Positions 37,549 through 60,614 of a DNA stretch of 64,000 nucleotides are shown here, one piece after another; the first letter of the stretch is position 1; each line of letters begins with the position of its first letter. The notes beneath the pieces are model-generated. The model was not told where the DNA came from and did not search any database. It saw nothing but the letters and a program-made list of their open reading frames with translations. The DNA is taken from the IMG/VR virus record IMGVR_UViG_3300037311_000293; one strand, 5' to 3'. Source of the DNA: a virus. The position numbers and the translations under genes are program-made.

Positions 37549-37968
37549 TCACGTCAACGCCTTGTGCGCCGCCAGACCGGCGCCGCCGAGGGCAACACCA
37601 CCGGCGACCTGTCTCATGCGGGTGACGCCGGCTTTGCCGCCCCCGAGGGCTTTGGCGCCGGCAGAGAGGCCTTTGCGGTAGGTGTCGTTGACCCCGAGGG
37701 CCTTGGCGCCGCGGCCGACGCCGCCGAGCACGGCTTTGCCGACGGTACCGAAGAAGGCGTGCTTCTGGAGCTCGAGGGCGAACGCCTCTTGAGCCGCAGC
37801 GGCTTCATCAGCGCTGAGCTTCTTGAGCAACGAGGCCATCAGGCCAGGCTTCTTCGTAGTCATGCGAGTCACTCCTGGCGGGAGGGCGTCTCCCGCAGAA
37901 CGTACGCCCTTGGTCCAGGGATCTTTGCCCTTCATGTGGTCGGGCTGCGGTACTCGGTAGCTCATCAC
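37549..37968 (-). CDS. putative internal head protein
   Basis: KLSA and KHA motifs; C-terminal VAGGVALGGAGLAA. Confidence 0.6.
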   Translation of the reverse strand: MMSYRVPQPDHMKGKDPWTKGVRSAGDALPPGVTRMTTKKPGLMASLLKKLSADEAAAAQEAFALELQKHAFFGTVGKAVLGGVGRGAKALGVNDTYRKGLSAGAKALGGGKAGVTRMRQVAGGVALGGAGLAAHKALT

Positions 37969-38867
37969 TCCTCCGGGGCGTTACGGGGGTAGGTGGGGTA
38001 GTTGGCGAAGATGTCGGGGGTCTTCTCGTCGATGGCGGTGTTCAGATCTGTGGGGTTCGTGAACATCCGCGGGGGACTGGGTTGGATGTCCTTGAGCGCT
38101 TCATCGAGTCGAAGCGGCAAACGATACTCGATATCGGTATCTGTGATCTGCCGCATCACGAGCTCTTGCTTGATGGGCGCACGAAGCCGCTCAGACTGCG
38201 TGACCTGCGTGATGCGCCAGCGCTTGTTCTCGGCCTCGACCAGCAGATCCCCTGGAACGATGTTGGGGTAGAACGATGTCCGCCCAGACGTCATGACAGT
38301 CTGTTCGATCTGCTGTGCGTGGTTCTGCTGAGCCTTGGCCGGCGGGTCGATCTGCACCCAGATCTCGATGGGGTTGTGGTAGCCGCGAAGGAAGCCGGTG
38401 TCGTAGCAGCTCAGGCAGTTCGCTCGAGTCCGCTTGTGCGAAGTGGTGTCCCAGCAAGACGGACAACGAGGCCCAAACGTCCGCGCCTTGAACAACCAGC
38501 ACAGACGCCCAGTCGCCTGGGTGAACAAGACGAGCTCGTGTCGCCGGATGTAGTTGGCGATCAGGTCGGGCTCGGCTTGCCGTGTGACAGGGCCGTAGTC
38601 GTGGATCTCAGACGAGGCCTTGTGTGTGACACGCAGCTTGTACCAGATCTGACGAAACTTGTCGCCAGCAGGCATCCTGGAATCCACGAAGATGTAGCGG
38701 TCCTCGAACGTGCCAGTGATGGGATCGAACGGTCCTTCAGGAGACTCCGAGCGCAAAACCTGGAAAGTGTAGTCCAACGCGTCATCCGAGGAGTCAGTCT
38801 CCCAGGTGACTTCGTTGCGATCTACATCCAGGCTTCGCACCCGGAGATTCTGAATCCCGAGGATCAT
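37965..38867 (-). CDS. neck/head-closure-like protein with Zn-binding Cys cluster
   Basis: N-terminal FnIII-like segment; RCPSCWD...CLSCYDTGF..GY; PGDLLVE. Confidence 0.6.
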   Translation of the reverse strand: MILGIQNLRVRSLDVDRNEVTWETDSSDDALDYTFQVLRSESPEGPFDPITGTFEDRYIFVDSRMPAGDKFRQIWYKLRVTHKASSEIHDYGPVTRQAEPDLIANYIRRHELVLFTQATGRLCWLFKARTFGPRCPSCWDTTSHKRTRANCLSCYDTGFLRGYHNPIEIWVQIDPPAKAQQNHAQQIEQTVMTSGRTSFYPNIVPGDLLVEAENKRWRITQVTQSERLRAPIKQELVMRQITDTDIEYRLPLRLDEALKDIQPSPPRMFTNPTDLNTAIDEKTPDIFANYPTYPRNAPEE

Positions 38868-40210
38868 CGGCGGCTCGCCATCTTGTACTTCTTCAGGAAC
38901 TCGATGCTCTGCATGCTACCCGGAGGCAGCGGCGCCGCAGGAGCATGGCGCGTTGCGGTACCCGTACCATCGAACGGCGACTTCTTCGGAGCCGCAGAAC
39001 GGAAGACATCGGTGGGCGCCGGGGTCGCCTTCGACGCCTTTGCCGCGATGCCTTGGCGAACGGCACTGAGACCCGATGCCGTGGTCTCGCCCTTGATGGC
39101 AGAGATCGGAACCCGCTTGGCGCTGCTCGCGGCTGCGGCTCGGCGGGCAAGATCAGCAATGCTGGCCTTCTTGCTCCGCTCTTCCTTTTGCTTTGCTCGG
39201 ATACGGCGATCACGCGCCTTGATTGCTGCTCCGGTTGCGCCAAGGGCAATCGCCCCGCCGAGCACACTACCGGCGATGCCCCGTGCATCTAGACGCGGCG
39301 ACCGAACGCGGGACTCGCCCGCGTTCTTCTCCTCGATCTTGTCGAAAGCACCGGGACGCGGGACCGGAATACCGGGTAGCGCAGCCTTGGGCCAGGTTGG
39401 TGCCGCGGCCTCACCGTTGTTGACGTGCCCGGTGTACTCGACCTCGGCCTTCTTTTTCTTGCCGCGATCTCGGAGCTTCTTTGCTGCGACGGCGCCAAGG
39501 CCTGCGGCCGCACCGATACCGACACCAGCGAGGTAGGCACCAGATCTTCCCGGTTTGCTCTTGCCCTTGACCGAGGAGACCATCTTGTCGATGACCTCCT
39601 TGGACTTCCGGGTGCTCTCAGCGGGATCCTTGATGAGGTTGCGCGCGATGTGGCGCGTAGATGCGGCCGCCCCGGCTGCCATGCGCTTCTTCCTTTGCTC
39701 AGGAGTCAGCCCTTTCTTCATGGCGGCCACGAGATTCTTGTCGGCAAACCGACCAAGCCTCTCCTGACTGGCATTCGATCCGCCCACTACCCTACGGATC
39801 ATATCCTCGCTTATCGCGCGCTTCTCACCATCTTCGGGTTGCTGACTTCGGCTCTTGTGGAGCTCGAGCACCAGAAGGGACTTCTGAAGCCGGATCTGGT
39901 CCTGCTTGGTCCAGAGATCTTGATCCTTGGGCTCCGCAAGCCGGCGCTGGATACGTTCGGCTTCCACTGCGAGATCTTGTTCAGCCAGCGCAACGGCCTT
40001 GGCGTGCAGCGGGGTCCCCTCGAACTGGCGAAGCCACCCCACGGAGGGATCGCAGTACCCAGACGCCTCCATCACCATCGAGGCGATCTTGGTGGGGTCG
40101 TCTTCGCCAAGAAGGGCCTCGAGCTCGTCGAAGTTCAAGATACGAAGGTCGTCGGCGCTGAGCTTTTCCTGGCTCATCGCATCCATGAAGTCTTGAAGGC
40201 TCATGATCAC
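38864..40210 (-). CDS. putative internal head protein
   Basis: KLSA, KIAS, KRA, KKAS motifs; two Gly/Ala hydrophobic helices followed by basic runs. Confidence 0.65.
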   Translation of the reverse strand: MIMSLQDFMDAMSQEKLSADDLRILNFDELEALLGEDDPTKIASMVMEASGYCDPSVGWLRQFEGTPLHAKAVALAEQDLAVEAERIQRRLAEPKDQDLWTKQDQIRLQKSLLVLELHKSRSQQPEDGEKRAISEDMIRRVVGGSNASQERLGRFADKNLVAAMKKGLTPEQRKKRMAAGAAASTRHIARNLIKDPAESTRKSKEVIDKMVSSVKGKSKPGRSGAYLAGVGIGAAAGLGAVAAKKLRDRGKKKKAEVEYTGHVNNGEAAAPTWPKAALPGIPVPRPGAFDKIEEKNAGESRVRSPRLDARGIAGSVLGGAIALGATGAAIKARDRRIRAKQKEERSKKASIADLARRAAAASSAKRVPISAIKGETTASGLSAVRQGIAAKASKATPAPTDVFRSAAPKKSPFDGTGTATRHAPAAPLPPGSMQSIEFLKKYKMASRR

Positions 40211-41877
40211 TCCTTCTTGGCGATGCGCTCGAGCGCATCCGCGATTCGCTTCTGGTTCTTGTCACGCTTGTGCTGCTGGTAGGCCTTGGCCCCACCAATA
40301 GCCGCGGCCCCGACGATTGCGGCACGGCCTTTGTTGCTGCGGATCGCCGCTCGCATCTTCTCCGAGGCACCTTCGACGAGCCGGCCGCCGGCTTCGGCAC
40401 CGTATTCCGCGATACCGCGACCCATTCCGCGGCCAACTTCTGGGGCGTGTTCTGCGAGCGCCTTGCCGGCGGCGCCCCCAGCAGGCCCGGCCTGTGAGGC
40501 AGCACCACGTGCCGTAGCAGCACCAGCGGCCTCAAGGACTTGCGTGGCCTTGTCCTTGGCGCGGTCGAGGACGCTGGCCGACTTCGCCTGCTCGGCTTGC
40601 TGGGTCTGCTGTGCGGCTTCCTGTTGGGCGCGTTGGGCCTGCTCGGTTTCCTTCTTGGCCTTGGGACCGCCGGTCTGCGCTGCGGCGTTCTGTTCCTCGA
40701 CCGCAGCGGCCTCTTGTTCCTGGGCCTGTTGTTCCGGGGTCATGAGCGGCGTGGTGTCGACACCTTCTTCGGCGACTGGATCGGAGCTCACGGTGTCGGC
40801 AAGCATCTGCCGCATCTGATTGATCCTCATGCTCAGGCGCATCTTGGCGTCGGCCTCCGAAGCTGCTTGCGCCGTTGCCGAAGCCGCTTCCTGGGACGCC
40901 TGCTGGGCCTGCTGACCGAGAACCTGCGCTTGCTCCGCAGTTGCAGCGGCCTGCTGCTGCACGGCTTGGTTCTCGGCACCAAGACTTTCGATCTGCTGAC
41001 CCTGCTGCACCATCTGCTGTTGGGTCTGCTCGAGGTTCTGCTTCAGCGCTTGGTTCTCAGCAGTGGCCTGGGCGTGGCTGAGCATCAGATCTCGGGTGAG
41101 ATACTGCTCCACGGGTTCCGTACCGGCTTCGGGCACGACGACATCACCGGGTTGCTGTGTCGGGGCCTTGGGCGCCGCGAGCTTCCGCCGCGCCGCAGCG
41201 AGCTTGTCGGCCGACGACTTCTTGGTCGTCTTCTCCGGCATGTACTGCCACAGCTTGTCGAGGTGCTCCTGAGCATCGCTTTGGAACTGCTCGAGTGTGA
41301 ACTTCATCGGGTTGTCGCCCAGCATCGAATGCAGGGTCTTGAACAACACGATGGCCTGTTGCTCGCCGGCAATGAGGAAGTTCAAGGCGGCGATGGGATC
41401 TGCCGTGGGCTCTGGTGTCGGCGCAACGGGGATCGGAACACCACCGGGAATGAGAACGCCAAGGCGACGAAGGAAGTACTTCATCTCCTTGATCTCATCG
41501 CGGCCCTGGGCATCGAACAGCTCGGAGAGCTCGCCGCGCCCGAGACCGCGCATTACCTCGCCGTAGTAGGCGTAGGCACCGTGCTGGCGCATGGAGTTGC
41601 TGACGATCTGAGCAAGTTGCATCGCGACGTCTTCCGGAGACACTGCGAACTCGCCTTCGAGGTGACCCGTGGTATCGGGCTTCCCGGCTTGCGTGTGCGC
41701 CGCGGCTTCGTCGGGCGTCGGTTCCTGACCCGTGGCGACGCCTTCGGCGTGCTCGACCAGGTCGGGATCTGCCGCGAGCTTTCGAAGCGCGGTGAAGAAG
41801 AACGAGGCATCCGCGAGCTCGGGCTTGGCACCGAACTCGCTGCGCAGGCTGTCATCCAGCTCTTCGTAGTGGTTCAT
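40207..41877 (-). CDS. putative internal head protein with ferritin-like domain and Gln-rich coiled coil
   Basis: ELSELF...DE.KE...LRRL..L.PGG, LNFLIAGEQQAI, DAQEHL; three KLAA sites. Confidence 0.6.
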   Translation of the reverse strand: MNHYEELDDSLRSEFGAKPELADASFFFTALRKLAADPDLVEHAEGVATGQEPTPDEAAAHTQAGKPDTTGHLEGEFAVSPEDVAMQLAQIVSNSMRQHGAYAYYGEVMRGLGRGELSELFDAQGRDEIKEMKYFLRRLGVLIPGGVPIPVAPTPEPTADPIAALNFLIAGEQQAIVLFKTLHSMLGDNPMKFTLEQFQSDAQEHLDKLWQYMPEKTTKKSSADKLAAARRKLAAPKAPTQQPGDVVVPEAGTEPVEQYLTRDLMLSHAQATAENQALKQNLEQTQQQMVQQGQQIESLGAENQAVQQQAAATAEQAQVLGQQAQQASQEAASATAQAASEADAKMRLSMRINQMRQMLADTVSSDPVAEEGVDTTPLMTPEQQAQEQEAAAVEEQNAAAQTGGPKAKKETEQAQRAQQEAAQQTQQAEQAKSASVLDRAKDKATQVLEAAGAATARGAASQAGPAGGAAGKALAEHAPEVGRGMGRGIAEYGAEAGGRLVEGASEKMRAAIRSNKGRAAIVGAAAIGGAKAYQQHKRDKNQKRIADALERIAKKE

Positions 41878-42866: not shown

Positions 42867-43601
42867 TCAGAGCGCAGACAACAGCTCGATGATGCGGGCG
42901 TTCGACATCTTGTCGTTGGCCTCGACACCGAACTCGGCACAGAGCTGGAGGAGCTCCTTCTTCGTGCGCTTCTCCCAACCCTCGGGGAGCCGCTTCGCTT
43001 CGACAGGGGCCTCGGCGACTTCCGTCTCCGCTTCCACTGCCTCCGAGGACTCCACCGGCGTCTCTGCGGCTTCCACGGGCGCCACATCGGTGTCGGGGAC
43101 CCCCTCGGTCTCAGGCGGGCCCGCAGGAGGCTCTGCCGGCGGGGCCGGGGGTTCGGTGCGTAGACCCTCAAGCCAGGCGCCCGGCACGAAGCCGAGGCCC
43201 TCGGCGTCGACGACCAGAACACCGGCGGCGTGGGCGGTCTGTACCTCTTCCGTGGTGAGCTCGCCGGTCGACACCGGGTTCTCCGGAAGTACGATGGCCT
43301 CGACTTCGTCCGCCACCTGAAGCTCCTCTTCGGGTGCAGTGCGCCCGAGAAGACTGCGGAGCTCGTCGATGCTGACATCGGTGTCGGCGTTGTACTGGAC
43401 CAGAAGGGTACCGTTGGCGATGTGCGCCTCGATCTCCTTCTGATGCTTGGCGCAGAACGCCAGCGTGACCGGTACCCGAAGATTCGGACGAATCGTCAGC
43501 TCTCCGATCCGAAATGCGCGCCGCGAGAAACGATGCGCCCGCCGCATCATGCGGGTGTGGACGTTTCGGCCCCCGCCGACGAGATACAACTTGTCGCTCA
43601 T
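42867..43601 (-). CDS. hypothetical protein with acidic linker and C-terminal HeH/Rho-N-like domain
   Basis: WEKRTKKELLQLCAEFGVEANDKMSNARIIELL. Confidence 0.65.
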   Translation of the reverse strand: MSDKLYLVGGGRNVHTRMMRRAHRFSRRAFRIGELTIRPNLRVPVTLAFCAKHQKEIEAHIANGTLLVQYNADTDVSIDELRSLLGRTAPEEELQVADEVEAIVLPENPVSTGELTTEEVQTAHAAGVLVVDAEGLGFVPGAWLEGLRTEPPAPPAEPPAGPPETEGVPDTDVAPVEAAETPVESSEAVEAETEVAEAPVEAKRLPEGWEKRTKKELLQLCAEFGVEANDKMSNARIIELLSAL

Positions 43602-43674: not shown

Positions 43675-44778
43675 TCAGAAGCTCACGACCTGGGGGAAGA
43701 ACTGGCGATTGCCGGCGCGGTTGTTCTCGGCTCCGAGACTCTCCTCGCTGACGGGCGTGACGCGCGACAGGATCGCGTCGGCGTCGTTCGTGGTCGCATC
43801 GCCCGAGTAGAGCTCGAGCTTGCGGACGCTCGCGATGTTCACGATCGACATCCCGACGTCCTTCCAGGCCACGAACTTGATCATGTTGATGACCTTGTCG
43901 ATGTAGAACTTCACGTTGTTGAGAACGTAGAAGCGGCCGAGGAAGTCCGGGGAGGTGAAGCAGTAGACGTTGCCGGGACGGAGGATGTCCGTCTTGATCG
44001 TCTTCACGTACCGCTTGCCCACGAGCATGTTGTACTTGAAGCCGCTCACGGCGGTCTCGGACTGGAGCTTGTCGCCCTGGTCTTCGACGGTCCACTGAAG
44101 GATGTCGTCCCAGTCGACCGACGTGATCAGGATCATGTCGCTCTCGAGGCGGTTGCCGTCGAGGAGCTTGATGAGCCGGACGATGTCGGGGCGCTGGAGC
44201 GGGCGGACGATGGCGTCGTCGGTGCCGGCGACGCGGGCGAGCTCGCCCTTGACGACGCTGAACTCGACCGTGGTACCGACGCTCGACGCGTTCAGCGTGG
44301 TGACCGAGCCACCGTTGGCCTCGGCCTGGAGAGCCTGCACCGCGGCCTCGATGTGGATCATGAACTCACGATCCTGGACCTCGCCCAGATCCTTCACGGC
44401 GTTCTGCTCGATCACCTTCCCGATGGGGAAGTTGTAGGCGAGGAACTCCTGTTCCGGCTTCTGGAACATGTCCGACATCACGGTGATGAAGGGAACCTCC
44501 ACCTTCGTGCCGCGGATGAAGTTCGCGCGCGGCTCGCCACGGAACGTGACGACCATGGCGCGGCTCTTCGGCTCGAGGAACTCGATCTTCACGAGGCTGT
44601 CGTGGTTGGTCGAGACCTGGCACTGGCTGCGATCCACGTTCTCCGGAGGGAGAACCTGTTCCGCGAAGCTCGCCTCGCGGAGGCGGTCGCGGATGTAGCC
44701 GCCGAACCGAGCGGCGATCTTGGTCTTCGCCCCCGGGTCGGAGAGCTGGTTGAGAAGCATCTCCTTGCTGTTCGACAT
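43675..44778 (-). CDS. major capsid protein (HK97-like)
   Basis: About 367 aa, highest GC3, follows the scaffold/decoration genes, has its own terminator; YIRDRLRE..F...VLPP...KP..E...Y..PI...AVKDL...DREF pattern. Confidence 0.8.
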   Translation of the reverse strand: MSNSKEMLLNQLSDPGAKTKIAARFGGYIRDRLREASFAEQVLPPENVDRSQCQVSTNHDSLVKIEFLEPKSRAMVVTFRGEPRANFIRGTKVEVPFITVMSDMFQKPEQEFLAYNFPIGKVIEQNAVKDLGEVQDREFMIHIEAAVQALQAEANGGSVTTLNASSVGTTVEFSVVKGELARVAGTDDAIVRPLQRPDIVRLIKLLDGNRLESDMILITSVDWDDILQWTVEDQGDKLQSETAVSGFKYNMLVGKRYVKTIKTDILRPGNVYCFTSPDFLGRFYVLNNVKFYIDKVINMIKFVAWKDVGMSIVNIASVRKLELYSGDATTNDADAILSRVTPVSEESLGAENNRAGNRQFFPQVVSF

Positions 44779-44825
44779 CTTGACTCTCCTGGTTGCCTGT
44801 TGGTGATGGGGTCCGGCTTGGGGGC

Positions 44826-45348: not shown

Positions 45349-45741
45349 TCAGTTGAAGGCCCCCTGGGTCGTCACGAAGTCTTCCAGCTCGTCGCTGGAC
45401 TGGCGCTCACCATGAGACGCACGCTTGGTGTTGGTGTTGTCGGCGTTGTCGAGGCTGCCGAGACGAGCACCGCCAGCAGCCATCTCGATGGCCTGGGCGA
45501 AGCTCGCGAGCTTCTCTTCGTCGAACTCACGAAGAGCAGCGACCTTCTCCTCGAAGTCCATCTCGGGCTCGAGTCCGCGCTGCTCCATGCGACGGGCGAG
45601 CTTCATCAGACGGAGCTCGTGCTCCGCCGCCGATGCGCGCTTCATCAAGCTCTGATTGCTGCTGGCGAGCTTGCGCATGTGCTGAGCCGCGGTCTGCATG
45701 ATCGCGGGAACCTCACTCGCCACCTTCTTCATGTTGGTCAT
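45349..45741 (-). CDS. scaffold-like head protein
   Basis: Helical; 7 of its 8 lysines sit in K-x-A motifs. Confidence 0.6.
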   Translation of the reverse strand: MTNMKKVASEVPAIMQTAAQHMRKLASSNQSLMKRASAAEHELRLMKLARRMEQRGLEPEMDFEEKVAALREFDEEKLASFAQAIEMAAGGARLGSLDNADNTNTKRASHGERQSSDELEDFVTTQGAFN

Positions 45742-45767
45742 GGGCTGTCTCCTCGTGAAATACCGAC

Positions 45768-46907
45768 TCAGCCGAGCAGCGTGGCGGGGTCGACCCCGAG
45801 CTTGGACTTGATCGACGTCAGAATCGACGCCGCCTTCTGGCGCTCTTCGACAGGCGCATCTTCGTCGTTGTAGACGTCGAAGGCGCGCTTGATGTAGGCG
45901 CGTGCGGCAGCGGACGTCTTCTCCTCGTCCTTGTCGTCCTTCTTGTCCTTCTTGGCCTCTGCCTTCTCGGTCTTCTCAGGCTTCGACTCCTCGTGCGAGG
46001 AAGCGCGCTTGCGAATCGCCGAGCTGAGCTTCTGGCCTTCGGTCGTGAGCGTGTGGGCGCCGACCGCCGGGTCCTTCTTCGGGGGCTCCGAGAAGTGCTT
46101 GGTGGTCTCTCGCGTCGTGGCGTCGCGGGCCTGAGAGCGCGTCATCGAGATCAGGCCGGCGTTGTCCGGGATGTGCGAGCTGGGCCCAGGCTCGGTGTCG
46201 AGCTTGAAGCTGTCGCTGTGCCCCGGCATCGAGGGCGGCGGGCTCGACGGATCCTGAGCCGCCTTGACCTGCTGCATGATGGCTTCGGCTTGATCGATCA
46301 GCCCGAGGCTCATCAGCGTCTCGGCCTGCGCCATCTTCGCCCGAAGAAGACGATTGGCCGCCGTCTTGTCCTTCGTCCAGCCCGCCGTCTTGCCGGGCTC
46401 GTTCTTCGGGGCACCGCTGTCGTCGCCGGGGGACGTGAACTCTTCCTTGTTCGTGTCCTGGCCGGCGGGATGGAGCTTGCCGCCGCTGAAGCGGTCCGTG
46501 ACCTTCGACGTCGCCTTGGGCGAGGCCGTGGCCGTGGTGATGAAGCCGGATTCCGACACCGCAGGACCCGGGGCATCGTGGACGGTGCCCTCGGCGATCT
46601 TGGTGACGATGCTGCTGCCGGCCTCGAGCGCTTCGGCGAGCTTGAAGGCGAAGTCGACGTCCGCCAGCGCGGATTCCTTCGTCTCTTCCTTCTCTTCCTT
46701 CTTCTCCTTGCGCTTCTCGCGGCTCTTCTCGTCGTCACCCTCGAACGGGGTGTCTTCGGAGGCGCGCTTGGTGATGGGCAGAAGGTCGCTGAGGAAGTCG
46801 CCGGGATCCCCGGCGGGCTCCGCGTCGCGGGCCGACGCCAACTTCAGGCCGCTCTCCGCCTTGGAGAGGGCGCTGCTGACGATATCGCTGAGGGTCAAAC
46901 CGGGCAT
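45768..46907 (-). CDS. scaffold/internal head protein
   Basis: Low-complexity charged sequence with many K-x-A/S motifs. Confidence 0.6.
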   Translation of the reverse strand: MPGLTLSDIVSSALSKAESGLKLASARDAEPAGDPGDFLSDLLPITKRASEDTPFEGDDEKSREKRKEKKEEKEETKESALADVDFAFKLAEALEAGSSIVTKIAEGTVHDAPGPAVSESGFITTATASPKATSKVTDRFSGGKLHPAGQDTNKEEFTSPGDDSGAPKNEPGKTAGWTKDKTAANRLLRAKMAQAETLMSLGLIDQAEAIMQQVKAAQDPSSPPPSMPGHSDSFKLDTEPGPSSHIPDNAGLISMTRSQARDATTRETTKHFSEPPKKDPAVGAHTLTTEGQKLSSAIRKRASSHEESKPEKTEKAEAKKDKKDDKDEEKTSAAARAYIKRAFDVYNDEDAPVEERQKAASILTSIKSKLGVDPATLLG

Positions 46908-46914
46908 GGGTTCC

Positions 46915-47133
46915 TCACGTAACTGGGGGTGGGGGAAGTGCTTTCTGGGAGGAGATCAGGTCGGGCCGGGTCTCAGCGGTCGGCGCAGCGGGCTGCGCGT
47001 ACTCCTGGCGGTCCTTGCCGACGTCACGCTGCTTCATCCGGCGACGTGCGTCGCCCATCCCAGCGGGACCCATGACCGTTTGGGCTTCCTTGAGGAAGCG
47101 CTCGATCAGGAGACTGGGATGGGCAGCACGCAT
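46915..47133 (-). CDS. small head-module protein
   Basis: Fills the gap exactly; KEA motif. Confidence 0.55.
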   Translation of the reverse strand: MRAAHPSLLIERFLKEAQTVMGPAGMGDARRRMKQRDVGKDRQEYAQPAAPTAETRPDLISSQKALPPPPVT

Positions 47134-47136
47134 CGA

Positions 47137-48204
47137 TCAACCCTCCAGGTAGCCGTTCTCCTGAAGGAGCTCCTCGGCGCGGGCGTACACCGCGGCGTAG
47201 TAGTCGTCGCCCGCGAACTCAGAGAACTCCGAGAACTCGGTCTGTTCGGCTGCGAGCTTGGTGGGCTCGACGATCCCGTTCTCGACGAGGATGTGGTTCG
47301 CGAACGCGACGGCATCTTGCTCGAAGGCCTCGTCGAACGACTGCTTCTTCCGCATCGCTGCCGCTCCGGCGCCCGCACCAGCGGTGGCCAGGGCCGCGCC
47401 ACCCAGCGCCGCGCGCCCCGTGCGCCGCGACTTCGCCGCATCCTCGAGGGCGTTACCCCCAGCAGCCATGCGCTTCTTGGCGCCTTCGGCTCCCCCACGC
47501 AGCTTGTAGCCGACGCGGGTGCTCACGGCGTGCTCCTTCTCCCGCACGGCACCCGCTGCGCCGCTTGCCGCGCTGCGTGCCTTGCTGGCGGCACCGCGGA
47601 CCTTGTCGGCCGCGCCGCTTGCCGCCCCACGGACCTTGCCGATCGCGCCACGAACGGCGTCCGTGGCGGCCGCCATGCGGGACGCTTCCTTCGTCGCTTC
47701 GTCCTCGCCGTCGCCGCCCTCGAGCTCGGCGAGCTTCTCGACGAAGCCCTCCGCCATCGCGCGACCGATCTCTCGGGCATCCGCGATCTTCTCCTCGGCG
47801 GCGATCTTCTGCTCGAAGTACGAGGGGTCGCTCATGTTCTGGGCGAGCTCCGCGAAGAGCTGGTGGTAGTCCTCACGGCTGAGCTCGTTGAGGTCGATGC
47901 CCTCGGCCTGGGCGATCTTGCCCAGCTCGACGGCCACATCGGCGTTGGTGATCTCGTTCGGGATCTGCGTCTCGTCGCTCATGGTCTGTTCCTTCTGGGG
48001 CTCCTGATGGGCGCTTGCGGTCTTCTCCGGAGGGAGCAACTCCGAAAGTAGACTCGCCACGTCTTCGTCGCTGAGGTCGTCGAGCTCGATGCCCTCTTGT
48101 TCAGCGATCTTCTGAAGGACGTGGCTCGCGTTCGCAAGATCGATGTCCAGGTCCTCGGAAGAGTCTTCCGTGTCCTGCTCGAAGATGTCGGTGACGCGTT
48201 CCAT
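47137..48204 (-). CDS. scaffold/internal head protein
   Basis: Two repeated acidic KIA..EGI.L..LS.ED units, 8 K-x-A motifs, Gly/Ala helix. Confidence 0.65.
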   Translation of the reverse strand: MERVTDIFEQDTEDSSEDLDIDLANASHVLQKIAEQEGIELDDLSDEDVASLLSELLPPEKTASAHQEPQKEQTMSDETQIPNEITNADVAVELGKIAQAEGIDLNELSREDYHQLFAELAQNMSDPSYFEQKIAAEEKIADAREIGRAMAEGFVEKLAELEGGDGEDEATKEASRMAAATDAVRGAIGKVRGAASGAADKVRGAASKARSAASGAAGAVREKEHAVSTRVGYKLRGGAEGAKKRMAAGGNALEDAAKSRRTGRAALGGAALATAGAGAGAAAMRKKQSFDEAFEQDAVAFANHILVENGIVEPTKLAAEQTEFSEFSEFAGDDYYAAVYARAEELLQENGYLEG

Positions 48205-48252
48205 GTTCTGTCCTTTGTGGGCGAACCTTCGTCGTTGGCTGCTCGGAGCTGC

Positions 48253-49965
48253 CTAGAAGGACTTCAGTGCACCCCGCGCCGCCGAAACGAGAGAGGTCGC
48301 AGCCTGACGAAGACCGCCGGCATTGTCCACAGCCATCGCTGCACGAAGAACCGCTCCGATCGTTGCCATCGAAGTGAAAGTCGGATTCTCGGCGACGAAC
48401 TGTGCCATGGCCCCTAGCTGCTCACCCTCTTCGTTCCTTCGACGAAGGTGCGATGAAACCAAATGTATCACGGGCGCTAGACCGAGGAGAAGCGCACTCA
48501 GGCCGATCCCTTTCAGGTCACGCGGAACCGAGAGCAGCGAAGCCGCCTTGGGCATCAGATTTTCAGCGTTCTCGAGTACGCTGATCCTATAGCCATTGTA
48601 CGCCGCCGCGATCTTCTCCAAACGGATGTAGTTGGGTTCCGAAGATCCGAGTTTGGGCTCGTCGGACGACAGCCGGGCATTCAGATACGGCGCATACGCC
48701 GAACGCTCCGGCACCAGCGGTACAAGGGCGCTTGCCAACTTGGCGTCGAACAACACGGGGTCGACGGCATAGCTGTCGTCGATGCCGCCTGTGGTATCGA
48801 ACACCGCATTCATCGAAGCCAGTGCTTGCTTCTCGGCAGCAGGAAGAACGATGGCCTGGAACTCCCGTGGAGTCGGGATGATGCCCAGCCCAGCAAGTAC
48901 GGTCAGCAGCGTGCGGGGCTCGGTACCTGCATCGACGATCGCGGACAGCGTCTCAGAAGCATCCGGAGCTGACTTCGCGTCGACCTCAACGGCCTGCGCG
49001 ATGCCATCTGGGATCTCCTTTTCCATCGACGACAGCTTCATCGACGACATCAAGGTATCGAGGATCTTGTCGATTCGACGTGTACCAGGAGCCGGTGCGG
49101 GGAGCTCGCTACCCGCCATGAACCACATGACGCGGGCGGTACGGTCGGCGCCGACCCAGACGAAGCTGATGTCAAAGAACCGCGGGAAGTCGTTGTAGAC
49201 GAACACCTTGCGGCCGTCGGGATAGATCTTCCCCGGCTCATTCCTCATGTGCTCGCAGTAGTCGACGCGCGTTACTGCGAGACCGCGGATCTTGGTGTGA
49301 AACCGATGGTAGGCCAGGATGGCAACACCGGGAGTGCGGTGTTTCTTGAGGTCGAAGAGCTTCCAAGCCTTCCGAATCGCATCCCAATCGGTGCAGATCG
49401 AGCACAAGTCGAAGGGCACTCGGCAACCCATCGAGACGTCGACGCGTTCACCCGCGGCGATTCGACTCAGGATGGATGTGTGGCCCTTCTTGGCGGCCTC
49501 TTCGTTGAACACGCGCTCGACGAGCTCGATGCGCTTCATCGTGGGGTTCAGCGCGACGTAGATGACGTCGCCGAAGCCGAGCTGCTGAGGATCAGTGTTC
49601 TTGTGATGGGCGTAGACCGTCGCGCCGTAGTACGTAGGGTAGCCGTAAGGCCAGTCCTTCCCCTGCATTTTGTCGGTCTCGTAATCCTGCCCAAAGGATT
49701 CTGGGGCGTTGAGGAGACCGTTGAAGTCGAGCGGCGCGTTGTACCCGTACCAGTCTCGGTTCGAGTTCGATCCGTAGAACTCGGAGTACCCCATCGCGTT
49801 TACGAGGGTGTAGGTGTACCGGGGATCAGGTTTCAACGAGTCGATGAAGCGCTGGACGGAGGGCACCAGGGGACTCGCCGTCTTCACCTGTTCACCAGGC
49901 GTGATGACGCGTACCAGGGGCTCTCCGTCAGGCTCACCTTGGAGATATGCGCGCTTGATCAGCAT
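48253..49965 (-). CDS. prohead (capsid maturation) protease
   Basis: VYAHH, DVSMGCRVPFDLCSIC, YCEHM, FFDISFV..ADRTA; start MLIKRAY. Confidence 0.75.
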   Translation of the reverse strand: MLIKRAYLQGEPDGEPLVRVITPGEQVKTASPLVPSVQRFIDSLKPDPRYTYTLVNAMGYSEFYGSNSNRDWYGYNAPLDFNGLLNAPESFGQDYETDKMQGKDWPYGYPTYYGATVYAHHKNTDPQQLGFGDVIYVALNPTMKRIELVERVFNEEAAKKGHTSILSRIAAGERVDVSMGCRVPFDLCSICTDWDAIRKAWKLFDLKKHRTPGVAILAYHRFHTKIRGLAVTRVDYCEHMRNEPGKIYPDGRKVFVYNDFPRFFDISFVWVGADRTARVMWFMAGSELPAPAPGTRRIDKILDTLMSSMKLSSMEKEIPDGIAQAVEVDAKSAPDASETLSAIVDAGTEPRTLLTVLAGLGIIPTPREFQAIVLPAAEKQALASMNAVFDTTGGIDDSYAVDPVLFDAKLASALVPLVPERSAYAPYLNARLSSDEPKLGSSEPNYIRLEKIAAAYNGYRISVLENAENLMPKAASLLSVPRDLKGIGLSALLLGLAPVIHLVSSHLRRRNEEGEQLGAMAQFVAENPTFTSMATIGAVLRAAMAVDNAGGLRQAATSLVSAARGALKSF

Positions 49966-50660
49966 CGCTTCCGGATCGCGGAGGACAGGCGCCGCGCCGC
50001 CGAGGTCTTGAAAGCACCCTGAGCCACGGCCTCGAGAAGTTGCTTCTGGTCCATCCCATACTGCTGGGCGGCGTGGCCGAGGTTCCGGGCCACCCGATCG
50101 GCGTACGCCGTGACCTTCTCCTGCGCCTGTCGCTCTTGTACGCCCTTGAGCTGGCCCTTCAGCGAGGCGATCTCGCCGTGCTCCTTGTCGACTTCGCGGT
50201 ACCGCGTGATGCCGCGGTCGACAAGACGCTCCACCGCGGCCCCAGGGCCGGGCCCGGCTTCGGAACGCGCGGCCGAGGCCATCTGGGAACGAATGCCGCT
50301 GAGATCCTTCACGGCGTCGAGGAGTGCGCGGCTCGATTGAACGGCGTCGAGCCCGCCGGACTCCACGATGGTGTCGACCCAAGCCCCAGCCACCATGGGG
50401 TCTTTCGCCATGGTGGGGTTGACGTTGTGGAGGCTGTTGTAGATCCGTCCCACCAGCACGGGATCACGGCCCTTGAGCTGTGGGTGGATGTTCAGCATCT
50501 CCTTGTACGCCACGGCCTTCCGCTTGGCTTCGCGCATGCGGCCGATCGCGCCGGCCGCAGCCGTCACACCGAGACCAGCACCCGCAGCGGCCATGGGGCC
50601 CCAGAATCCAGGATCTTTGATGAGGCTCTTGAAAACCCCGTGCTGAGAGTACTTCGGCAT
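49959..50660 (-). CDS. putative internal head protein
   Basis: N-terminal Gly/Ala hydrophobic helix; KTSA; start MPKYSQ. Confidence 0.6.
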   Translation of the reverse strand: MPKYSQHGVFKSLIKDPGFWGPMAAAGAGLGVTAAAGAIGRMREAKRKAVAYKEMLNIHPQLKGRDPVLVGRIYNSLHNVNPTMAKDPMVAGAWVDTIVESGGLDAVQSSRALLDAVKDLSGIRSQMASAARSEAGPGPGAAVERLVDRGITRYREVDKEHGEIASLKGQLKGVQERQAQEKVTAYADRVARNLGHAAQQYGMDQKQLLEAVAQGAFKTSAARRLSSAIRKRC

Positions 50661-50667
50661 GAACTCC

Positions 50668-50949
50668 TCACGTGTAGAGAAGGCGGTACTTCGCCTCGTC
50701 GTACTTCTGCTTGGCCTTCCGGCCGCCCAAGTAGGTACCACCAGCCAGCGCGGCGTACCCCGCCACACGACCGGCCTTCTCGTTGGTCCCGAGGCCGCGG
50801 GCCAGCCCGGCACCGGCCTCGCCGCTGCCCTTGGCCACCCGACGAAGGAAGGCGCCCGCGGCTTCTGCCTTTTCGGCCGCGGACGCCGTCTTCAAGAGAC
50901 CGATCGAAAGCGCGAGGGTCTTCGTCTTCATCGCTCTTCCTCCAGCCAC
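50668..50949 (-). CDS. small putative internal head protein
   Basis: KTAS; VAGYAALAGGTYLGG followed by a basic tail. Confidence 0.6.
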   Translation of the reverse strand: MAGGRAMKTKTLALSIGLLKTASAAEKAEAAGAFLRRVAKGSGEAGAGLARGLGTNEKAGRVAGYAALAGGTYLGGRKAKQKYDEAKYRLLYT

Positions 50950-51740
50950 GCCGTGACATCGGCGAGGTTCTTCTCCAGATCGCGGAGCGCGAGCTGGTGG
51001 GCCTGGTAGGTCTTGGCCTCCTTCACGAGTTCCGCGAAAGCAGACACGACCGGGGCGGCAGGATTGATGATCCGAGACGCCACCTTCTGATTGCTGGCCT
51101 TCATGAAAGGCGAGAACCGACGAAACGCGACCTTCGCGGATTCGGCGTCGACGAGACTCCAGGCCTCAAGAAGCTCGGAGGGCGAAGTACCCTGTGAAGT
51201 CGCAGAGACCACGGCCTCCGCCAGCTTCTCCACGGCCATCGACATCCGCTCCTTGGCAGCCTCAGAGCTCTGTACGAGCTCGTCGTGTCCCGCAGCCAGC
51301 TTGCTGCGGAGCGACATGACGTCGCCCAACACCCCGGCACGGGTACGCTCGGATTCAGTGAAGGACGCCGCAGAAGACTTCGAGAAGTCCGGCGGCATGG
51401 AGTATTCGAGGGCGTCGATGGTGACCTCCCGAGGCCGTGCCTCTTTGTGCAGAGCCTGTAGCACTTCCACGGGGTCTGCGGGTCCGCCGTCGATGTGGAC
51501 GTGGCGAAGATGCCCCGAGGTCGAGGCGTACTTGCGCTGGAACGCTTCGATGTTGGCGAACTCCACGACGCGACGAACCTGCTCGGAGTTCAGTTTCTCG
51601 TGACCCACCGTTTGGACGACGGCGTCGGTGAGGCTGATTCCTGCGGTGTCTGCGAGGTGCGCGGCCTGCTTTCCCAGGTGCTCGAAGAGCCCGGGGTCGA
51701 CTGACCGCCCGCGTACGTGGAGCGTGTCGTGGCGCGTCAT
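50928..51740 (-). CDS. head-module protein
   Basis: LNSEQVRRVVEFAN; KQAA, KLAA, KVAS motifs. Confidence 0.65.
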   Translation of the reverse strand: MTRHDTLHVRGRSVDPGLFEHLGKQAAHLADTAGISLTDAVVQTVGHEKLNSEQVRRVVEFANIEAFQRKYASTSGHLRHVHIDGGPADPVEVLQALHKEARPREVTIDALEYSMPPDFSKSSAASFTESERTRAGVLGDVMSLRSKLAAGHDELVQSSEAAKERMSMAVEKLAEAVVSATSQGTSPSELLEAWSLVDAESAKVAFRRFSPFMKASNQKVASRIINPAAPVVSAFAELVKEAKTYQAHQLALRDLEKNLADVTAWLEEER

Positions 51741-51811
51741 GGTATGGATCTCCAGCCGATCTGCCTGTGAGTAGGGTACCTTACGTGGCACCAGTAGGGG
51801 AATACATCGCA

Positions 51812-52324
51812 ATGATTCGTACACTGGATCGCGCGTTGCTACAAGCAAGAGTCGAAGACCTCGAGCGCCAGGTCGACGCCCTGAATGCTCAGATCGTCGG
51901 GCGAACCTCCGGGCTTTTCCGGCCTGAACAGCTTGTCACGCTCTACATGGACGCGGCGAAGACCCCGGCTTACGACGAGATGTCGGCGCGTCATTGGGCC
52001 CGGCAAATCTTCTGCCTCGATGTCCGCCAGTTCCTGTTCATGGCCCGGCTGTGCCGTGACCCCTTCCCCTGGCAGCCCTTTCTCCGCCTACTCGACCTCT
52101 ACGTAGTCGAGGGCTTCGACTACCTCGTCGACGACGCCCACAGCCATGTGTTGTCCGTGGCTCAGGGCCTGTTGAACATCCAGGGTCTCCGTAAGATCGG
52201 CCCACGAGATGTCATGGGCAACCCGCTGCGCATAAAAGCTGCGATCTCTACTATCAGAGATCGAGGAGGCTCTAGTGCAGCTAACCGTAAAGATCTCGGA
52301 TCTGTGGACGGCAACCGTCGATAA
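51812..52324 (+). CDS. hypothetical protein
   Basis: First gene of the plus-strand island. Confidence 0.6.
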   Translation: MIRTLDRALLQARVEDLERQVDALNAQIVGRTSGLFRPEQLVTLYMDAAKTPAYDEMSARHWARQIFCLDVRQFLFMARLCRDPFPWQPFLRLLDLYVVEGFDYLVDDAHSHVLSVAQGLLNIQGLRKIGPRDVMGNPLRIKAAISTIRDRGGSSAANRKDLGSVDGNRR

Positions 52325-52490
52325 CGTCAGCGTCATTCTGACGGCCGGAAAATCCGGACTACGGATCAAGATCACACCACAGGCCGTGACGCTGACCGCG
52401 ACGGGTGCGGACGACAGCGTCTTGGGCGAGCGTGTCTTCTCGATGGAAGAGGTTCTCAAGGCCGTCCCGGCCATCTTGGGGGTTCAATGA
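52275..52490 (+). CDS. small hypothetical protein
   Basis: GAGGAGG RBS, probable GTG start; ATGA overlap with gyrB. Confidence 0.6.
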   Translation: MQLTVKISDLWTATVDNVSVILTAGKSGLRIKITPQAVTLTATGADDSVLGERVFSMEEVLKAVPAILGVQ

Positions 52491-57239: not shown

Positions 57240-57614
57240 TCAGAGAGGGGCGTCGATCACCGAAAAAAAGCGCTCGACGATCGGCCAAGGGTCAGGGGAC
57301 GCCCCGAGATTCTTGACGATGATGCAGAAGCTGTTGAGCTCTTCGGTGAACACGGCCTTGAGATTCTCGAGGCGAAAGCACTGAGGCATCGCCTTCTCCA
57401 AGCGCTCGGGCATCTTGAACGAAGGGTCCCAGGAGCCGTTGCTGTCCTTCGTCCGGTCCGGTGGGAAGAACTGGAACACCATCGCGCCGTCGTCGTACCG
57501 GACGCCGTACTCGGCGACGTAGTACGTTGTGACGCGTGCCAGGCGATTCGGAAGGGCTTCGCGCAGAGAGCTGCCTTCGACGGGCGCTCCTGCGAACTCG
57601 TTGATGTCAGTCAT
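57240..57614 (-). CDS. hypothetical protein
   Basis: ATGA-coupled, upstream of terL. Confidence 0.7.
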   Translation of the reverse strand: MTDINEFAGAPVEGSSLREALPNRLARVTTYYVAEYGVRYDDGAMVFQFFPPDRTKDSNGSWDPSFKMPERLEKAMPQCFRLENLKAVFTEELNSFCIIVKNLGASPDPWPIVERFFSVIDAPL

Positions 57615-60603: not shown

Positions 60604-60614
60604 GTTGATCACCT

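What the first reader, a model, noticed from the sequence alone, without database searches (positions are those of the whole stretch)
41239..41637. Degenerate ferritin-like four-helix bundle inside a putative head protein, bracketed by KLAA sites
Seen: LAQIVSN...ELSELFDAQGRDEIKEMKYFLRRLGVLIPGG...LNFLIAGEQQAIVLF...DAQEHLDKL follows the bacterioferritin/Dps helix pattern. Several di-iron ligands are changed (ExxH reads DEIKE and DAQEH). KLAA occurs before the domain and twice after it. Established: myxobacterial encapsulins are HK97-fold shells loaded with ferritin-like cargo. Inference: processing releases a free ferritin-like domain inside the capsid, for DNA protection, metal binding or injected anti-stress function. 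This would be a phage parallel to encapsulin cargo.
Basis: partly seen in the sequence, partly recalled or inferred. Interest (0 to 1): 0.75.

Follow-up and report, generated by a model that had tools for sequence, protein, structure and literature searches.

The report
Ferritin-like domain in phage head-module protein
A 556-residue protein in the head-to-tail gene block of an uncultured 177-kb phage carries a true ferritin-type four-helix domain whose iron site is partly lost here but intact in most relatives, so it is a candidate iron-binding passenger carried with a virus capsid.

Summary
Window 41239-41637 (minus) encodes residues 81-213 of a 556-aa protein (40210-41877). The AlphaFold model of this stretch (pLDDT over 90) is a ferritin/bacterioferritin bundle: Z 18-20, rmsd 1.8-2.3 A over 132-139 residues.

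The six di-iron positions read S, E-x-x-E, E, A-x-x-H. Two ligands are lost and one His is now Glu. KLAA lies at residues 33-36, 225-228 and 232-235.

New here:
- The gene keeps its place (MCP, p168, p151, this gene, p448, p300, sheath) in all 21 related phage loci that carry it.
- At least 211 protein clusters share the architecture, and about two thirds of the best 150 keep the full E/ExxH/E/ExxH set.
- Positional orthologues in other relatives have the same N-terminal signature and coiled coil, but a glycine-zipper module or nothing where the domain sits. The domain is therefore an optional passenger.
- K-x-A-[AS] is about 19-fold denser in 11 head-module proteins than in the rest of the proteome.

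Best reading (about 0.5): an internal or ejected head protein, trimmed at K-x-A-[AS], whose domain is catalytically decayed in this phage. No protease was found and no virion data exist. First readers flagged the same kind of domain in windows of two other genomes.

The parts
40210..41877 (-). Gene for the 556-aa ferritin-like head-module protein (P0001). Its stop codon is at 40207-40209.
   Evidence: ORF list and translation. The ATG lies 1 nt after the stop of the upstream gene. A GTGA start/stop overlap joins it to the next gene (coordinates). 46 homologues, and at least 211 clusters at E<=1e-30 with the same architecture.
41770..41877 (-). N-terminal signature (residues 1-36) ending in the first KLAA (33-36, window 41770-41781). 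Candidate targeting propeptide.
   Evidence: F27, K33 and A35 are at 90% or more. The same signature, 'AAxxF(F/V)x(L/M)KxA(S/A/E)', is present in all 35 positional orthologues, with or without the ferritin domain.
41638..41769 (-). Acidic N-extension (residues 37-80) holding the conserved motif PDxTGxLEGxFAV just before helix A.
   Evidence: Mean conservation of residues 65-80 is 0.73. pLDDT is about 90 in the model. Net charge is -9.
41239..41637 (-). Ferritin-like four-helix bundle (residues 81-213). Ligand positions are S95, E128, E131, E172, A202 and H205.
   Evidence: PF00210. AlphaFold2 pLDDT above 90. Z 18-20 to Bfr, mini-Bfr and 2qqy. Ligand table.
41116..41238 (-). Flexible linker (residues 214-254) with the second KLAA (225-228, window 41194-41205) and the third (232-235, window 41173-41184).
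   Evidence: pLDDT is 49-56, and below 50 at residues 234-241. K225 is at 90% or more. Among the 150 best cluster representatives, 94 have K-x-A-[AS] within 70 residues after the domain.
40789..41112 (-). Single long Gln/Ala-rich helix (residues 256-363). It is a scaffold-like or coiled-coil-prone stalk, and its end overlaps the conserved motif MRLSMRINQMRQMLADTVSSDPV (residues 346-368).
   Evidence: The full-length AlphaFold2 model has a helix at 256-363. Composition is Q 26% and A 23%. The 'RQxLxDLxxQDP' motif is present in 34 of the 35 positional orthologues (blank in the L019 row). R356 and P367 are at 90% or more.
40210..40737 (-). Variable C-terminal part (residues 381-556): Q/E/A-rich helices, a Gly/Ala-rich stretch and a basic tail. 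A fourth K-x-A-S lies at residue 432.
   Evidence: Segment composition and charge. Orthologues hit the Pfam families Gly-zipper_Omp, Gly-zipper_YMGG and Rick_17kDa_Anti.
43675..44790 (-). Major head protein. A conserved K-I-A-A lies near residue 20.
   Evidence: PHROG 2522, major head protein, E 6.4e-9. K-(I/V/L/M)-A-(A/E) is kept in nearly all of the 80 related loci.
38864..40210 (-). Downstream partner gene p448. Its product has an N-terminal K-I-A-S, two glycine-zipper hydrophobic stretches and basic runs.
   Evidence: Motif list. Hydrophobic windows at residues 225-243 and 312-330. Syntenic in most relatives.
45349..50382 (-). Head-assembly genes upstream of the MCP that are rich in K-x-A-[AS]: p130 (6 of its 8 Lys), p379, p355 and the 709-aa portal candidate.
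   Evidence: Counts against composition and shuffles. The same enrichment is seen in the equivalent genes of L002 and L003.

Best explanation
P0001 is a conserved virion-module protein of an uncultured lineage of roughly 120-195-kb myophages. It is most likely an internal or ejected head protein. It is built from four parts:
1. A 33-residue N-terminal signature ending in K-L-A-A.
2. An optional passenger domain, which here is a ferritin-like four-helix bundle.
3. A flexible linker with two more K-L-A-A sites.
4. A 16-nm-class Gln-rich helix and a Gly/Ala-basic tail that would tie it into the prohead core.

Shown:
- The fold.
- Homology to the ferritin-like superfamily.
- The conserved gene position.
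- The modularity of the domain.
- An intact E/ExxH/E/ExxH site in most relatives, and loss of two ligands here.
- The enrichment and positional conservation of K-x-A-[AS].

Inferred:
- The protein is built into the prohead.
- A still unidentified prohead protease cuts at K-x-A-[AS]. This would remove the N-terminal signature and free a roughly 190-residue acidic fragment (about residues 37-224) containing the bundle.
- In relatives with the full ligand set, this fragment binds two irons and oxidises Fe(II), either inside the capsid or after ejection into the host.
- In this phage, di-iron chemistry is probably lost. At most one metal could bind, at E128/E172/H205. The domain would persist for a structural or oligomerisation role, or be decaying.
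For: Fold and homology.

Structural operon: a 1-nt gap upstream, then GTGA and ATGA overlaps downstream. The gene lies between the MCP and the sheath.

Synteny: portal, p158, MCP, p168, FTN, p448, p300, p273, sheath in all 21 related loci, with MCP identity 54-86%.

Not a cellular gene: no relative in one genome of each of 185,579 prokaryote species. No free-standing short form, only one truncated hit.

Family size and architecture: 211 clusters at E<=1e-30. In nearly all listed rows the domain starts at residue 16-90 of a 400-1340-aa protein.

Ligand sets:
- 95 of the best 150 representatives are EEHEEH.
- 12 of 19 IMG/VR relatives are canonical. The window's clade is [S/N]EEEAH or EEDEEH.
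- L033 holds only a decayed remnant (E 2.8e-8).

Modularity:
- All 35 positional orthologues share the N-terminal signature and all but one the 'RQxLxDLxxQDP' motif. The middle part is a ferritin domain, glycine zippers or nothing.
- On the MCP tree the domain lies on both sides of the deepest split and needs at least 5 changes.

K-x-A-[AS] motif:
- 46 copies in 11 head-module proteins, against a shuffle mean of 8.5 and maximum of 19 (0 of 2000 shuffles reach 46).
- Density is 0.97 per 100 aa, against 0.05 in the other 189 ORFs.
- Reversed or permuted motifs give 10-16 copies.
- The enrichment is repeated in L002 and L003 and the motif is kept at the MCP N-terminus in nearly all of the 80 loci.
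- The distal sites lie in a low-pLDDT linker.

Precedent (literature): the SPN3US prohead protease cuts head and ejection proteins after a three-residue motif, AXE, mostly removing N-terminal propeptides. T4 propeptides target proteins to the prohead core (PMC10052503).
Against: - No prohead protease family was detected in the 177-kb genome. PF03420, PF04586 and PF00574 give nothing. Pfam, PHROGs and the ESM Atlas give nothing for the candidate genes.
- Cleavage, and the side of the motif on which it would occur, are unproven.
- No virion proteome or cultured relative carries the gene. There is no match in 50,697 GenBank phage records. The only cultured relative by MCP or TerL, Salmonella phage Arash at 24-27% identity, shows no such gene near its MCP.
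- The gene lies among presumed neck genes, downstream of the MCP. It is not with the scaffold-like genes upstream.
- The set of 11 motif-rich proteins was picked after seeing the counts, although the genes are mostly clustered in the head module and the result repeats in relatives.
- One third of family representatives have degenerate sites. Selection may therefore act on something other than iron chemistry.
Confidence: 0.5

Rival explanations
1. A pure assembly role. The protein is a scaffold or core component and the ferritin-like bundle serves only as an oligomerisation hub, as ferritin-type dimers or 12-mers. Long helices would radiate from this hub to organise the prohead core. The protein is degraded and expelled at maturation, so nothing ferritin-like remains in the virion.
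For: - The architecture is all-alpha with a 108-residue helix.
- One orthologue hits Pfam Phage_scaffold weakly, E 1.6e-4.
- Conservation is highest in the C-D loop, helix D and the N-terminal extension, and helix B (Y134, L136, R138, L142) and the B-C loop (P150, P155, P157) hold several near-invariant residues. In ferritins, helix B and the B-C loop form the two-fold interface (the interface assignment is textbook knowledge).
- The fold is retained in the roughly one third of representatives that have lost ligands.
Against: - The domain is absent from many orthologues that keep the rest of the protein, so it cannot be an essential assembly hub.
- About two thirds of the best 150 representatives keep all six metal ligands. 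The canonical set persists in loci whose MCP is only 54-70% identical to the window's. That argues for selection on metal binding.
- Better scaffold candidates lie directly upstream of the MCP: p130, p355 and p379.
Confidence: 0.2
2. An external neck, collar or whisker protein, fibritin-like. The long helix forms a fibre attached at the head-tail junction, and the ferritin-like domain is displayed outside the virion, for example to bind iron or an iron-related receptor.
For: - The gene lies between presumed head-completion genes (p168, p151) and p300, p273 and the sheath.
- It has a long helical stalk.
Against: - It shares the K-x-A-[AS] motif and an N-terminal signature with proteins of the head-assembly block. 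The sheath has none among its 15 Lys, and most ORFs outside the head-module set, including the tail genes, have none.
- Orthologues carry glycine-zipper modules of a membrane-active kind instead of the domain. That fits ejected proteins better than fibres.
Confidence: 0.1
3. A late-expressed soluble auxiliary protein, a Dps- or ferritin-like AMG. It would manage iron and reactive oxygen in the infected cell, would not be part of the particle, and would sit in the structural operon only for timing.
For: Stand-alone Dps-like genes in Lactobacillus and gut phages have been read this way (PMC8008677). JGI annotated homologues as bacterioferritin or rubrerythrin.
Against: - It is never free-standing.
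- It is always the N-terminal module of a 400-1340-aa protein whose other parts are conserved even where the domain is absent.
- Its position is fixed and translationally coupled within the structural operon.
- It shares motifs with head proteins.
Confidence: 0.08
4. The protein is built into the head but is not cleaved. K-x-A-[AS] would then be a short docking or packing motif, for the shell interior, the portal or DNA, or a lysine-modification site, rather than a protease site.
For: No protease gene was found. The motif at the MCP N-terminus lies in a region that is conserved as a whole.
Against: - The pattern is that of known protease substrates. There are many copies in small scaffold-like proteins, such as 6 of 8 Lys in p130.
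- Copies lie near N-termini and in disordered linkers.
- This mirrors the T4 and SPN3US systems.
Confidence: 0.12

Closest known systems
Mini-bacterioferritin (Ca. Methanoperedens, PDB 9qq4/9qq5; PMC13168243) and the 139-aa ferritin-like di-iron carboxylate protein 2qqy of Bacillus anthracis
   Same: A compact four-helix bundle of about 135 residues with a long B-C loop and no aligned fifth helix. Z is 19.1-19.9 with rmsd 1.8-2.2 A. An intrasubunit E/ExxH/E/ExxH site is present in most family members. The conserved Tyr seven residues after the helix-A ligand is kept as Y102.
   Different: The domain is embedded at the N-terminus of a 556-aa phage protein. In the window two ligands are lost and one His is Glu. 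The haem-ligand Met position is Ile here, and Met in only 9 of 150 representatives. The oligomeric state is unknown, whereas mini-Bfr is a 12-mer with coprohaem (abstract).
DPS-like (DPSL) proteins: Sulfolobus solfataricus 2clb and Bacteroides fragilis 2vzb
   Same: 2clb is the best profile-to-PDB sequence hit (E 2.5e-4). 2vzb tops the Foldseek list. Both have a Bfr-type di-metal site inside the bundle.
   Different: The window's domain contains no cysteine at all (sequence), so the Cys pair recalled from memory as typical of 'thioferritins' cannot be present. DPSL proteins are free-standing cellular 12-mers.
Encapsulin ferritin-like cargo (Flp, EncFtn, IMEF, double-ferritin-fold ferroxidases)
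   Same: A ferritin-superfamily domain genetically tied to an HK97-fold shell gene. There is a plausible route into the shell interior through a short terminal signal.
   Different: The shell belongs to a real phage with a terminase, a portal candidate and a contractile tail. The candidate signal is N-terminal and ends in K-x-A-A; it is not a C-terminal targeting peptide. The domain is a full four-helix bundle, not the half-ferritin EncFtn. Loading is not shown.
Prohead-protease substrates of large myophages: T4 internal proteins with N-terminal capsid-targeting sequences, and the phiKZ/SPN3US inner-body and ejection proteins
   Same: A short three- or four-residue motif is concentrated in head proteins. 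It often lies 10-45 residues from the N-terminus, and occurs many times in scaffold-like proteins. The motif at the MCP N-terminus is conserved. SPN3US gp245 cuts after AXE and removes N-terminal propeptides (PMC10052503).
   Different: The motif here is K-x-A-[A/S], not (L/I)xE or (A/S/G)xE. No gp21-type, HK97-type or ClpP-type protease is detectable. No such substrate is known to carry a ferritin-like domain (literature searches).
Stand-alone Dps-like or ferritin-like genes of phages (Lactobacillus phages, 'Gratiaviridae')
   Same: Same superfamily. They appear among the BFVD structural matches, for example Lactobacillus phage Semele and LP65. They are described in PMC8008677.
   Different: Those are small free-standing proteins read as auxiliary metabolic genes. 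This one is a module of a long, syntenic head-module protein, and has no sequence match in 50,697 GenBank phage records.

Membership tests
Ferritin-like superfamily (four-helix di-iron carboxylate bundle) | Up-down-down-up four-helix bundle with a long crossover loop between helices B and C | tested here: met
   AlphaFold2 helices 81-111, 115-142, 161-185 and 191-211 with a loop at 143-160, pLDDT above 90. Z 18-20, rmsd 1.8-2.3 A over whole Bfr, mini-Bfr and 2qqy chains.
Ferritin-like superfamily (four-helix di-iron carboxylate bundle) | Detectable sequence homology to the family profile | tested here: met
   The window protein scores 19.5-21.2 bits against PF00210, below the curated 24.5. However, 32 of 46 homologues match, best E 1.7e-17, and the family profile hits 2clb and 9qq4.
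Ferritin-like superfamily (four-helix di-iron carboxylate bundle) | Six di-iron ligands: E (helix A), ExxH (B), E (C), ExxH (D) | tested here: not met
   The window reads S95, E128-x-x-E131, E172, A202-x-x-H205. The feature is met in 12 of 19 IMG/VR relatives and in 95 of the best 150 cluster representatives.
Bacterioferritin sensu stricto | Haem axial Met (E. coli Bfr M52, the residue after the helix-B Glu) | tested here: not met
   Position 129 is Ile in the window. Across 150 representatives it is L 70, T 19, R 14, A 12, I 9 and M 9.
Bacterioferritin sensu stricto | Short fifth (E) helix and a 24-mer cage | tested here: inconclusive
   Structural alignments stop at Bfr residue 145, and Pro214 follows helix D.
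Dps (mini-ferritin, DNA-binding) | Lys-rich N-terminal tail or a basic surface for DNA binding | tested here: not met
   The N-extension 37-80 has net charge -9 and the domain -6. The inter-subunit ferroxidase site of Dps was not examined.
Encapsulin cargo protein | Operon with an encapsulin shell gene that lacks portal and terminase, plus a C-terminal targeting peptide | tested here: not met
   The neighbours are a phage MCP, a large terminase and a sheath. The C-terminus is variable among homologues and absent from many. Physical loading is not testable here.
Prohead-protease-processed internal or ejection head proteins (T4 IP / phiKZ-SPN3US type) | Encoded with the head genes and carrying the phage's cleavage motif near the N-terminus | tested here: met
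   The gene is syntenic in the head-tail operon. K-x-A-[AS] at residues 33-36 is conserved. The motif is about 19-fold denser in head-module proteins.
Prohead-protease-processed internal or ejection head proteins (T4 IP / phiKZ-SPN3US type) | Actual cleavage by a phage prohead protease and presence of the product in virions | not testable with these tools
   No protease was identified. There is no cultured member and no proteome.

The most novel reading that the evidence does not exclude
A widespread lineage of uncultured large myophages loads an active ferroxidase domain into its capsid through an N-terminal signal and a coiled-coil carrier, and frees it with a K-x-A-[A/S]-specific prohead protease. 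The phage head, or the ejected protein bolus, would then carry iron-handling chemistry. That would be a natural viral counterpart of encapsulin iron compartments. It would also be an example of the 'procapsid with biochemical cargo' proposed in PMC13669383. The window's copy would be a decayed descendant of such a domain.
Probability: 0.25. Interest if true: 0.8.

Novelty: new variant of a known kind. Interest (0 to 1): 0.6.

Why it matters
Ferritin-like proteins of phages have so far been described as small free-standing auxiliary genes (PMC8008677). Ferritin-like cargo inside HK97-fold shells is known only for encapsulins.

Here a ferritin-type domain, with an intact di-iron site in most members, is a modular part of a conserved head-module protein. 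At least 211 protein clusters from uncultured large phages share this architecture.

If the domain is really packaged, three things follow:
- It would be a natural case of an enzyme-like passenger in a phage capsid.
- It would give a concrete test object for the recently raised idea that procapsids or scaffold-like proteins can carry biochemical functions (PMC13669383).
- It would define a new prohead-protease specificity, K-x-A-[A/S].

The presence, absence and decay series among close relatives also offers a natural experiment on what the domain contributes.

Tried and rejected
- **Oligomer test.** No oligomer test was made.
- **Prohead protease hunt.**
  - PF03420, PF04586 and PF00574 found nothing in the whole genome.
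  - Pfam and PHROGs found nothing for 58579-60717, 57611-58582, 50928-51848, 48253-50382, 47137-48204, 45768-46907, 45349-45741 or the 511-aa protein L005.
  - The ESM Atlas models of p355 and p379 are low-confidence and coiled-coil-like, with no usable neighbours.
- **PDB by single sequence.** A phmmer search of the domain gave only a chance antibody hit, E 1.7.
- **PHROGs on P0001.** No family.
- **GenBank phages.** No protein match for P0001 or for a canonical-site relative, and no DNA match.
- **Salmonella phage Arash.** It is the only cultured relative by MCP or TerL. No equivalent gene is annotated near its MCP, and no paper on it is in the library.
- **Free-standing short homologues.** Only one hit, truncated by a contig end.
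- **Cellular genomes.** No relative.
- **Chance resemblance to a generic helical bundle.** Rejected, because Z is 18-20 over whole chains and the family matches Pfam.
- **Bacterioferritin proper.** Rejected, because the haem Met is absent.
- **EncFtn.** Rejected, because this is a full bundle and not a half-ferritin.
- **Tape-measure role.** Rejected, because the gene lies upstream of the sheath.
Full report
**Setting**

The window is the minus strand of 49517-113516 of a 177,453-bp IMG/VR virus record that CheckV rates as complete. It encodes these phage proteins:
- a major head protein (PHROG 2522, E 6.4e-9)
- a large terminase
- a 1029-aa protein with a tail-sheath domain
- a topoisomerase II

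It is therefore a large contractile-tailed phage. The only cultured relative by MCP or TerL is Salmonella phage Arash, at 24-27% identity.

**The gene**

The finding lies in a minus-strand ORF. Homologues fix the start at MNHYEEL (41877), which gives the 556-aa protein P0001. Three signs of tight translational coupling place it in the operon that runs from the MCP to the sheath:
- its ATG is 1 nt after the stop of the upstream gene
- its stop overlaps the GTG of the next gene (GTGA)
- that next gene overlaps the one after it (ATGA)

**Observation check**

Coordinates 41239-41637 are exactly residues 81-213.

Sequence evidence:
- Pfam Ferritin (PF00210) matches residues 87-209 over nearly the whole profile, but below the curated threshold: 19.5-21.2 bits against 24.5.
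- Homology is secured through the family. 32 of 46 homologues match PF00210 (best E 1.7e-17) and 11 match Rubrerythrin.
- A family profile finds the Sulfolobus DPS-like protein and a mini-bacterioferritin in the PDB.

Structure evidence:
- AlphaFold2 on residues 1-240, with 46 sequences, gives mean pLDDT 90 and four long helices with a long B-C loop.
- Foldseek and VIA-align place the model squarely among bacterioferritins, mini-bacterioferritin, Dps-like proteins and 2qqy (Z 18-20, rmsd 1.8-2.3 A, 132-139 residues).

Ligands and motifs:
- Aligned to relatives with the canonical set, the six ligand positions read S95, E128, E131, E172, A202 and H205.
- The conserved Tyr seven residues after the helix-A ligand is kept as Y102.
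- KLAA occurs at residues 33-36, 225-228 and 232-235.

**The family**

A word-seeded search found 46 homologues of 393-851 aa. An exhaustive profile search with the domain alone found 211 clusters (at 50% identity) at E<=1e-30. In nearly all listed rows the domain starts at residue 16-90 of a 400-1340-aa protein.

Three searches for the domain elsewhere came back empty:
- no free-standing short form exists apart from one truncated hit
- no relative occurs in representative genomes of 185,579 prokaryote species
- none occurs in 50,697 GenBank phage records

Ligand sets among the best 150 representatives:

| Set | Count |
|---|---|
| EEHEEH (full) | 95 |
| KEAEDH | 17 |
| EEDEEH | 10 |
| KEGEDH | 6 |
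| SEEEAH (the window's type) | 6 |

Other degenerate sets make up the remainder.

Among 19 IMG/VR loci, 12 are canonical, and these include all but one of the distant loci (MCP 54-70% identical to the window's). The window's near clade is [S/N]EEEAH or EEDEEH. One close relative, L033, retains only a decayed remnant.

I infer, by parsimony and from the superfamily norm, that an intact di-iron site is the older state and that the window's copy is degenerate. This direction was not tested with a rooted model.

The haem-ligand Met of bacterioferritin is absent: Ile here, and Met in only 9 of 150 representatives.

**Context and modularity**

In all 21 related loci that carry the gene, the order is portal candidate, p158, MCP, (p244), p168, (p151), FTN, p448, p300, p273, sheath.

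I then selected relatives by their MCP instead. Only 16 of 44 loci with enough downstream sequence have a detectable ferritin-like domain. The same position nevertheless always holds an orthologue. It has the same N-terminal signature, 'AAxxF(F/V)x(L/M)KxA(S/A/E)', the same Gln-rich helix and, in all but one, the same 'RQxLxDLxxQDP' motif.

Between the signature and the helix these orthologues carry one of three things:
- the ferritin domain
- glycine-zipper modules (Pfam Gly-zipper_Omp, Gly-zipper_YMGG or Rick_17kDa_Anti)
- nothing, with only 22-70 residues in between (L061, L051, L087, L088, L090)

On an MCP tree the domain occurs on both sides of the deepest split. It needs at least 5 gains or losses, of which at least 2 are forced by well-supported branches.

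The domain is thus an optional passenger on a conserved carrier.

**The K-x-A-[A/S] motif**

| Measure | 11 head-module proteins | Other 189 ORFs |
|---|---|---|
| Copies of K-x-A-[AS] | 46 | 26 |
| Residues | 4,737 | 48,834 |
| Copies per 100 aa | 0.97 | 0.05 |

- Per-protein shuffles give a mean of 8.5 and a maximum of 19, and 0 of 2000 reach 46.
- Reversed or permuted motifs give 10-16 copies.
- The 130-aa protein upstream of the MCP has 6 of its 8 lysines in the motif.
- The sheath has none among 15 lysines.
- The enrichment repeats in the same genes of two relatives.
- The MCP keeps K-(I/V/L/M)-A-(A/E) near residue 20 in nearly all of the 80 loci.
- In P0001 the first site ends the conserved N-terminal signature. 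The other two lie in a linker of pLDDT 49-56.

The pattern resembles the short cleavage motifs of the T4 and SPN3US/phiKZ prohead proteases, which mostly remove N-terminal propeptides (PMC10052503).

Two caveats apply. The head set was defined after seeing the counts. No protease could be identified.

**Mechanism**

*Shown:* the fold, the homology, the operon position, the synteny, the modularity, the ligand states and the motif statistics.

*Inferred:* the protein enters the prohead and is cut at K-x-A-[A/S]. That would free a roughly 190-residue fragment, about net -14 summed from the segment charges, that holds the bundle.
- In relatives with the full ligand set this fragment should bind two irons and oxidise Fe(II). 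It could act inside the capsid, or after ejection. The glycine-zipper modules of orthologues and of the neighbour p448 hint at ejected, membrane-active proteins.
- In this phage the Fe1 site has lost E95 and the bridging E202, so di-iron chemistry is unlikely. E128, E172 and H205 could still hold one metal.
- Direct Dps-like DNA binding is unlikely given the acidity.

I put about 0.5 on this reading. The rivals and their weights are:

| Rival | Weight |
|---|---|
| Pure scaffold or oligomerisation role | 0.2 |
| Incorporation without cleavage | 0.12 |
| External neck fibre | 0.1 |
| Soluble late auxiliary protein | 0.08 |

**Comparison and novelty**

- Structurally the domain is closest to mini-bacterioferritins and DPSL proteins. 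It is not a bacterioferritin proper (no haem Met), not a Dps (acidic, Bfr-type site) and not EncFtn.
- Functionally the nearest analogies are encapsulin ferritin-like cargo and protease-processed internal head proteins of large myophages. Membership in either cannot be claimed.
- The literature held here describes only free-standing Dps-like phage genes (PMC8008677). It raises, without examples, the possibility of biochemical cargo in procapsids (PMC13669383). Searches for ferritin-like head proteins found nothing relevant.
- Automated pipelines have already labelled homologues 'bacterioferritin' or 'rubrerythrin', so the domain itself is not a new discovery.
- What is new is the architecture, the conserved structural context, the modularity and the motif bracket.
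- First readers flagged the same kind of domain in windows of two other genomes.

**Verdict**

This is a new variant of a known kind, with interest 0.6.

Noticed in passing
window 45349-45741 (-): A 130-aa protein directly upstream of p158 and the MCP has 6 of its 8 lysines inside K-x-A-S/A motifs. It looks like a scaffold meant to be chopped into small peptides, as T4 gp22 is.
   Followed up: partly
L033-L100 (positional orthologues), alignments A3 and A4: In many related phages the orthologue of P0001 has glycine-zipper modules (Pfam Gly-zipper_Omp, Gly-zipper_YMGG or Rick_17kDa_Anti), or nothing, where the ferritin-like domain sits. L033 keeps only a decayed remnant of the domain.
   Followed up: yes
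window 38864-40210 (-): The downstream gene p448 has an N-terminal K-I-A-S, two 19-residue Gly/Ala hydrophobic stretches each followed by basic runs, and a C-terminal K-M-A-S. It may be an ejected, membrane-active partner.
   Followed up: partly
BFVD matches of model m258ca9b54546: Several proteins of uncultured Caudovirales align to the ferritin-like domain. They are annotated 'Prohead protease' (333, 432 and 763 aa) or 'Dps' (498 and 622 aa). They may be independent fusions of ferritin-like domains to capsid-interior proteins. Their sequences could not be fetched.
   Followed up: no
window 42867-43601 (-): The 244-aa protein just after the MCP ends in a helix-extension-helix/SAP-like segment. 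That segment hits PHROG 3281 (endonuclease VII, E 8.4e-5) and PHROG 390 (Arc-like repressor).
   Followed up: no
window 37965-38867 (-): The 300-aa protein p300 is conserved in most related loci that extend far enough downstream (45-78% identity). It carries a CxxC...CxxC zinc-ribbon-like pair and matches PHROG 2806, of unknown function.
   Followed up: no
window 27221-29377 (-): Residues 7-145 of the 718-aa protein hit many PHROGs. These are annotated minor head protein, DarB-like antirestriction, endolysin or virion structural protein (E down to 1e-28).
   Followed up: no
window 52487-54409 (+): A topoisomerase II large-subunit gene (PHROG 543, E 3.5e-162) and small plus-strand genes interrupt the minus-strand head block, between the terminase and the portal candidate.
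   Followed up: no
window 58579-60717 (-) and genome 35255-36790 (L005): Two further proteins, of 712 and 511 aa, carry 7 K-x-A-[AS] motifs each. They lie outside the main head cluster and neither has any Pfam or PHROG match. They could be further packaged proteins, or the missing protease.
   Followed up: partly
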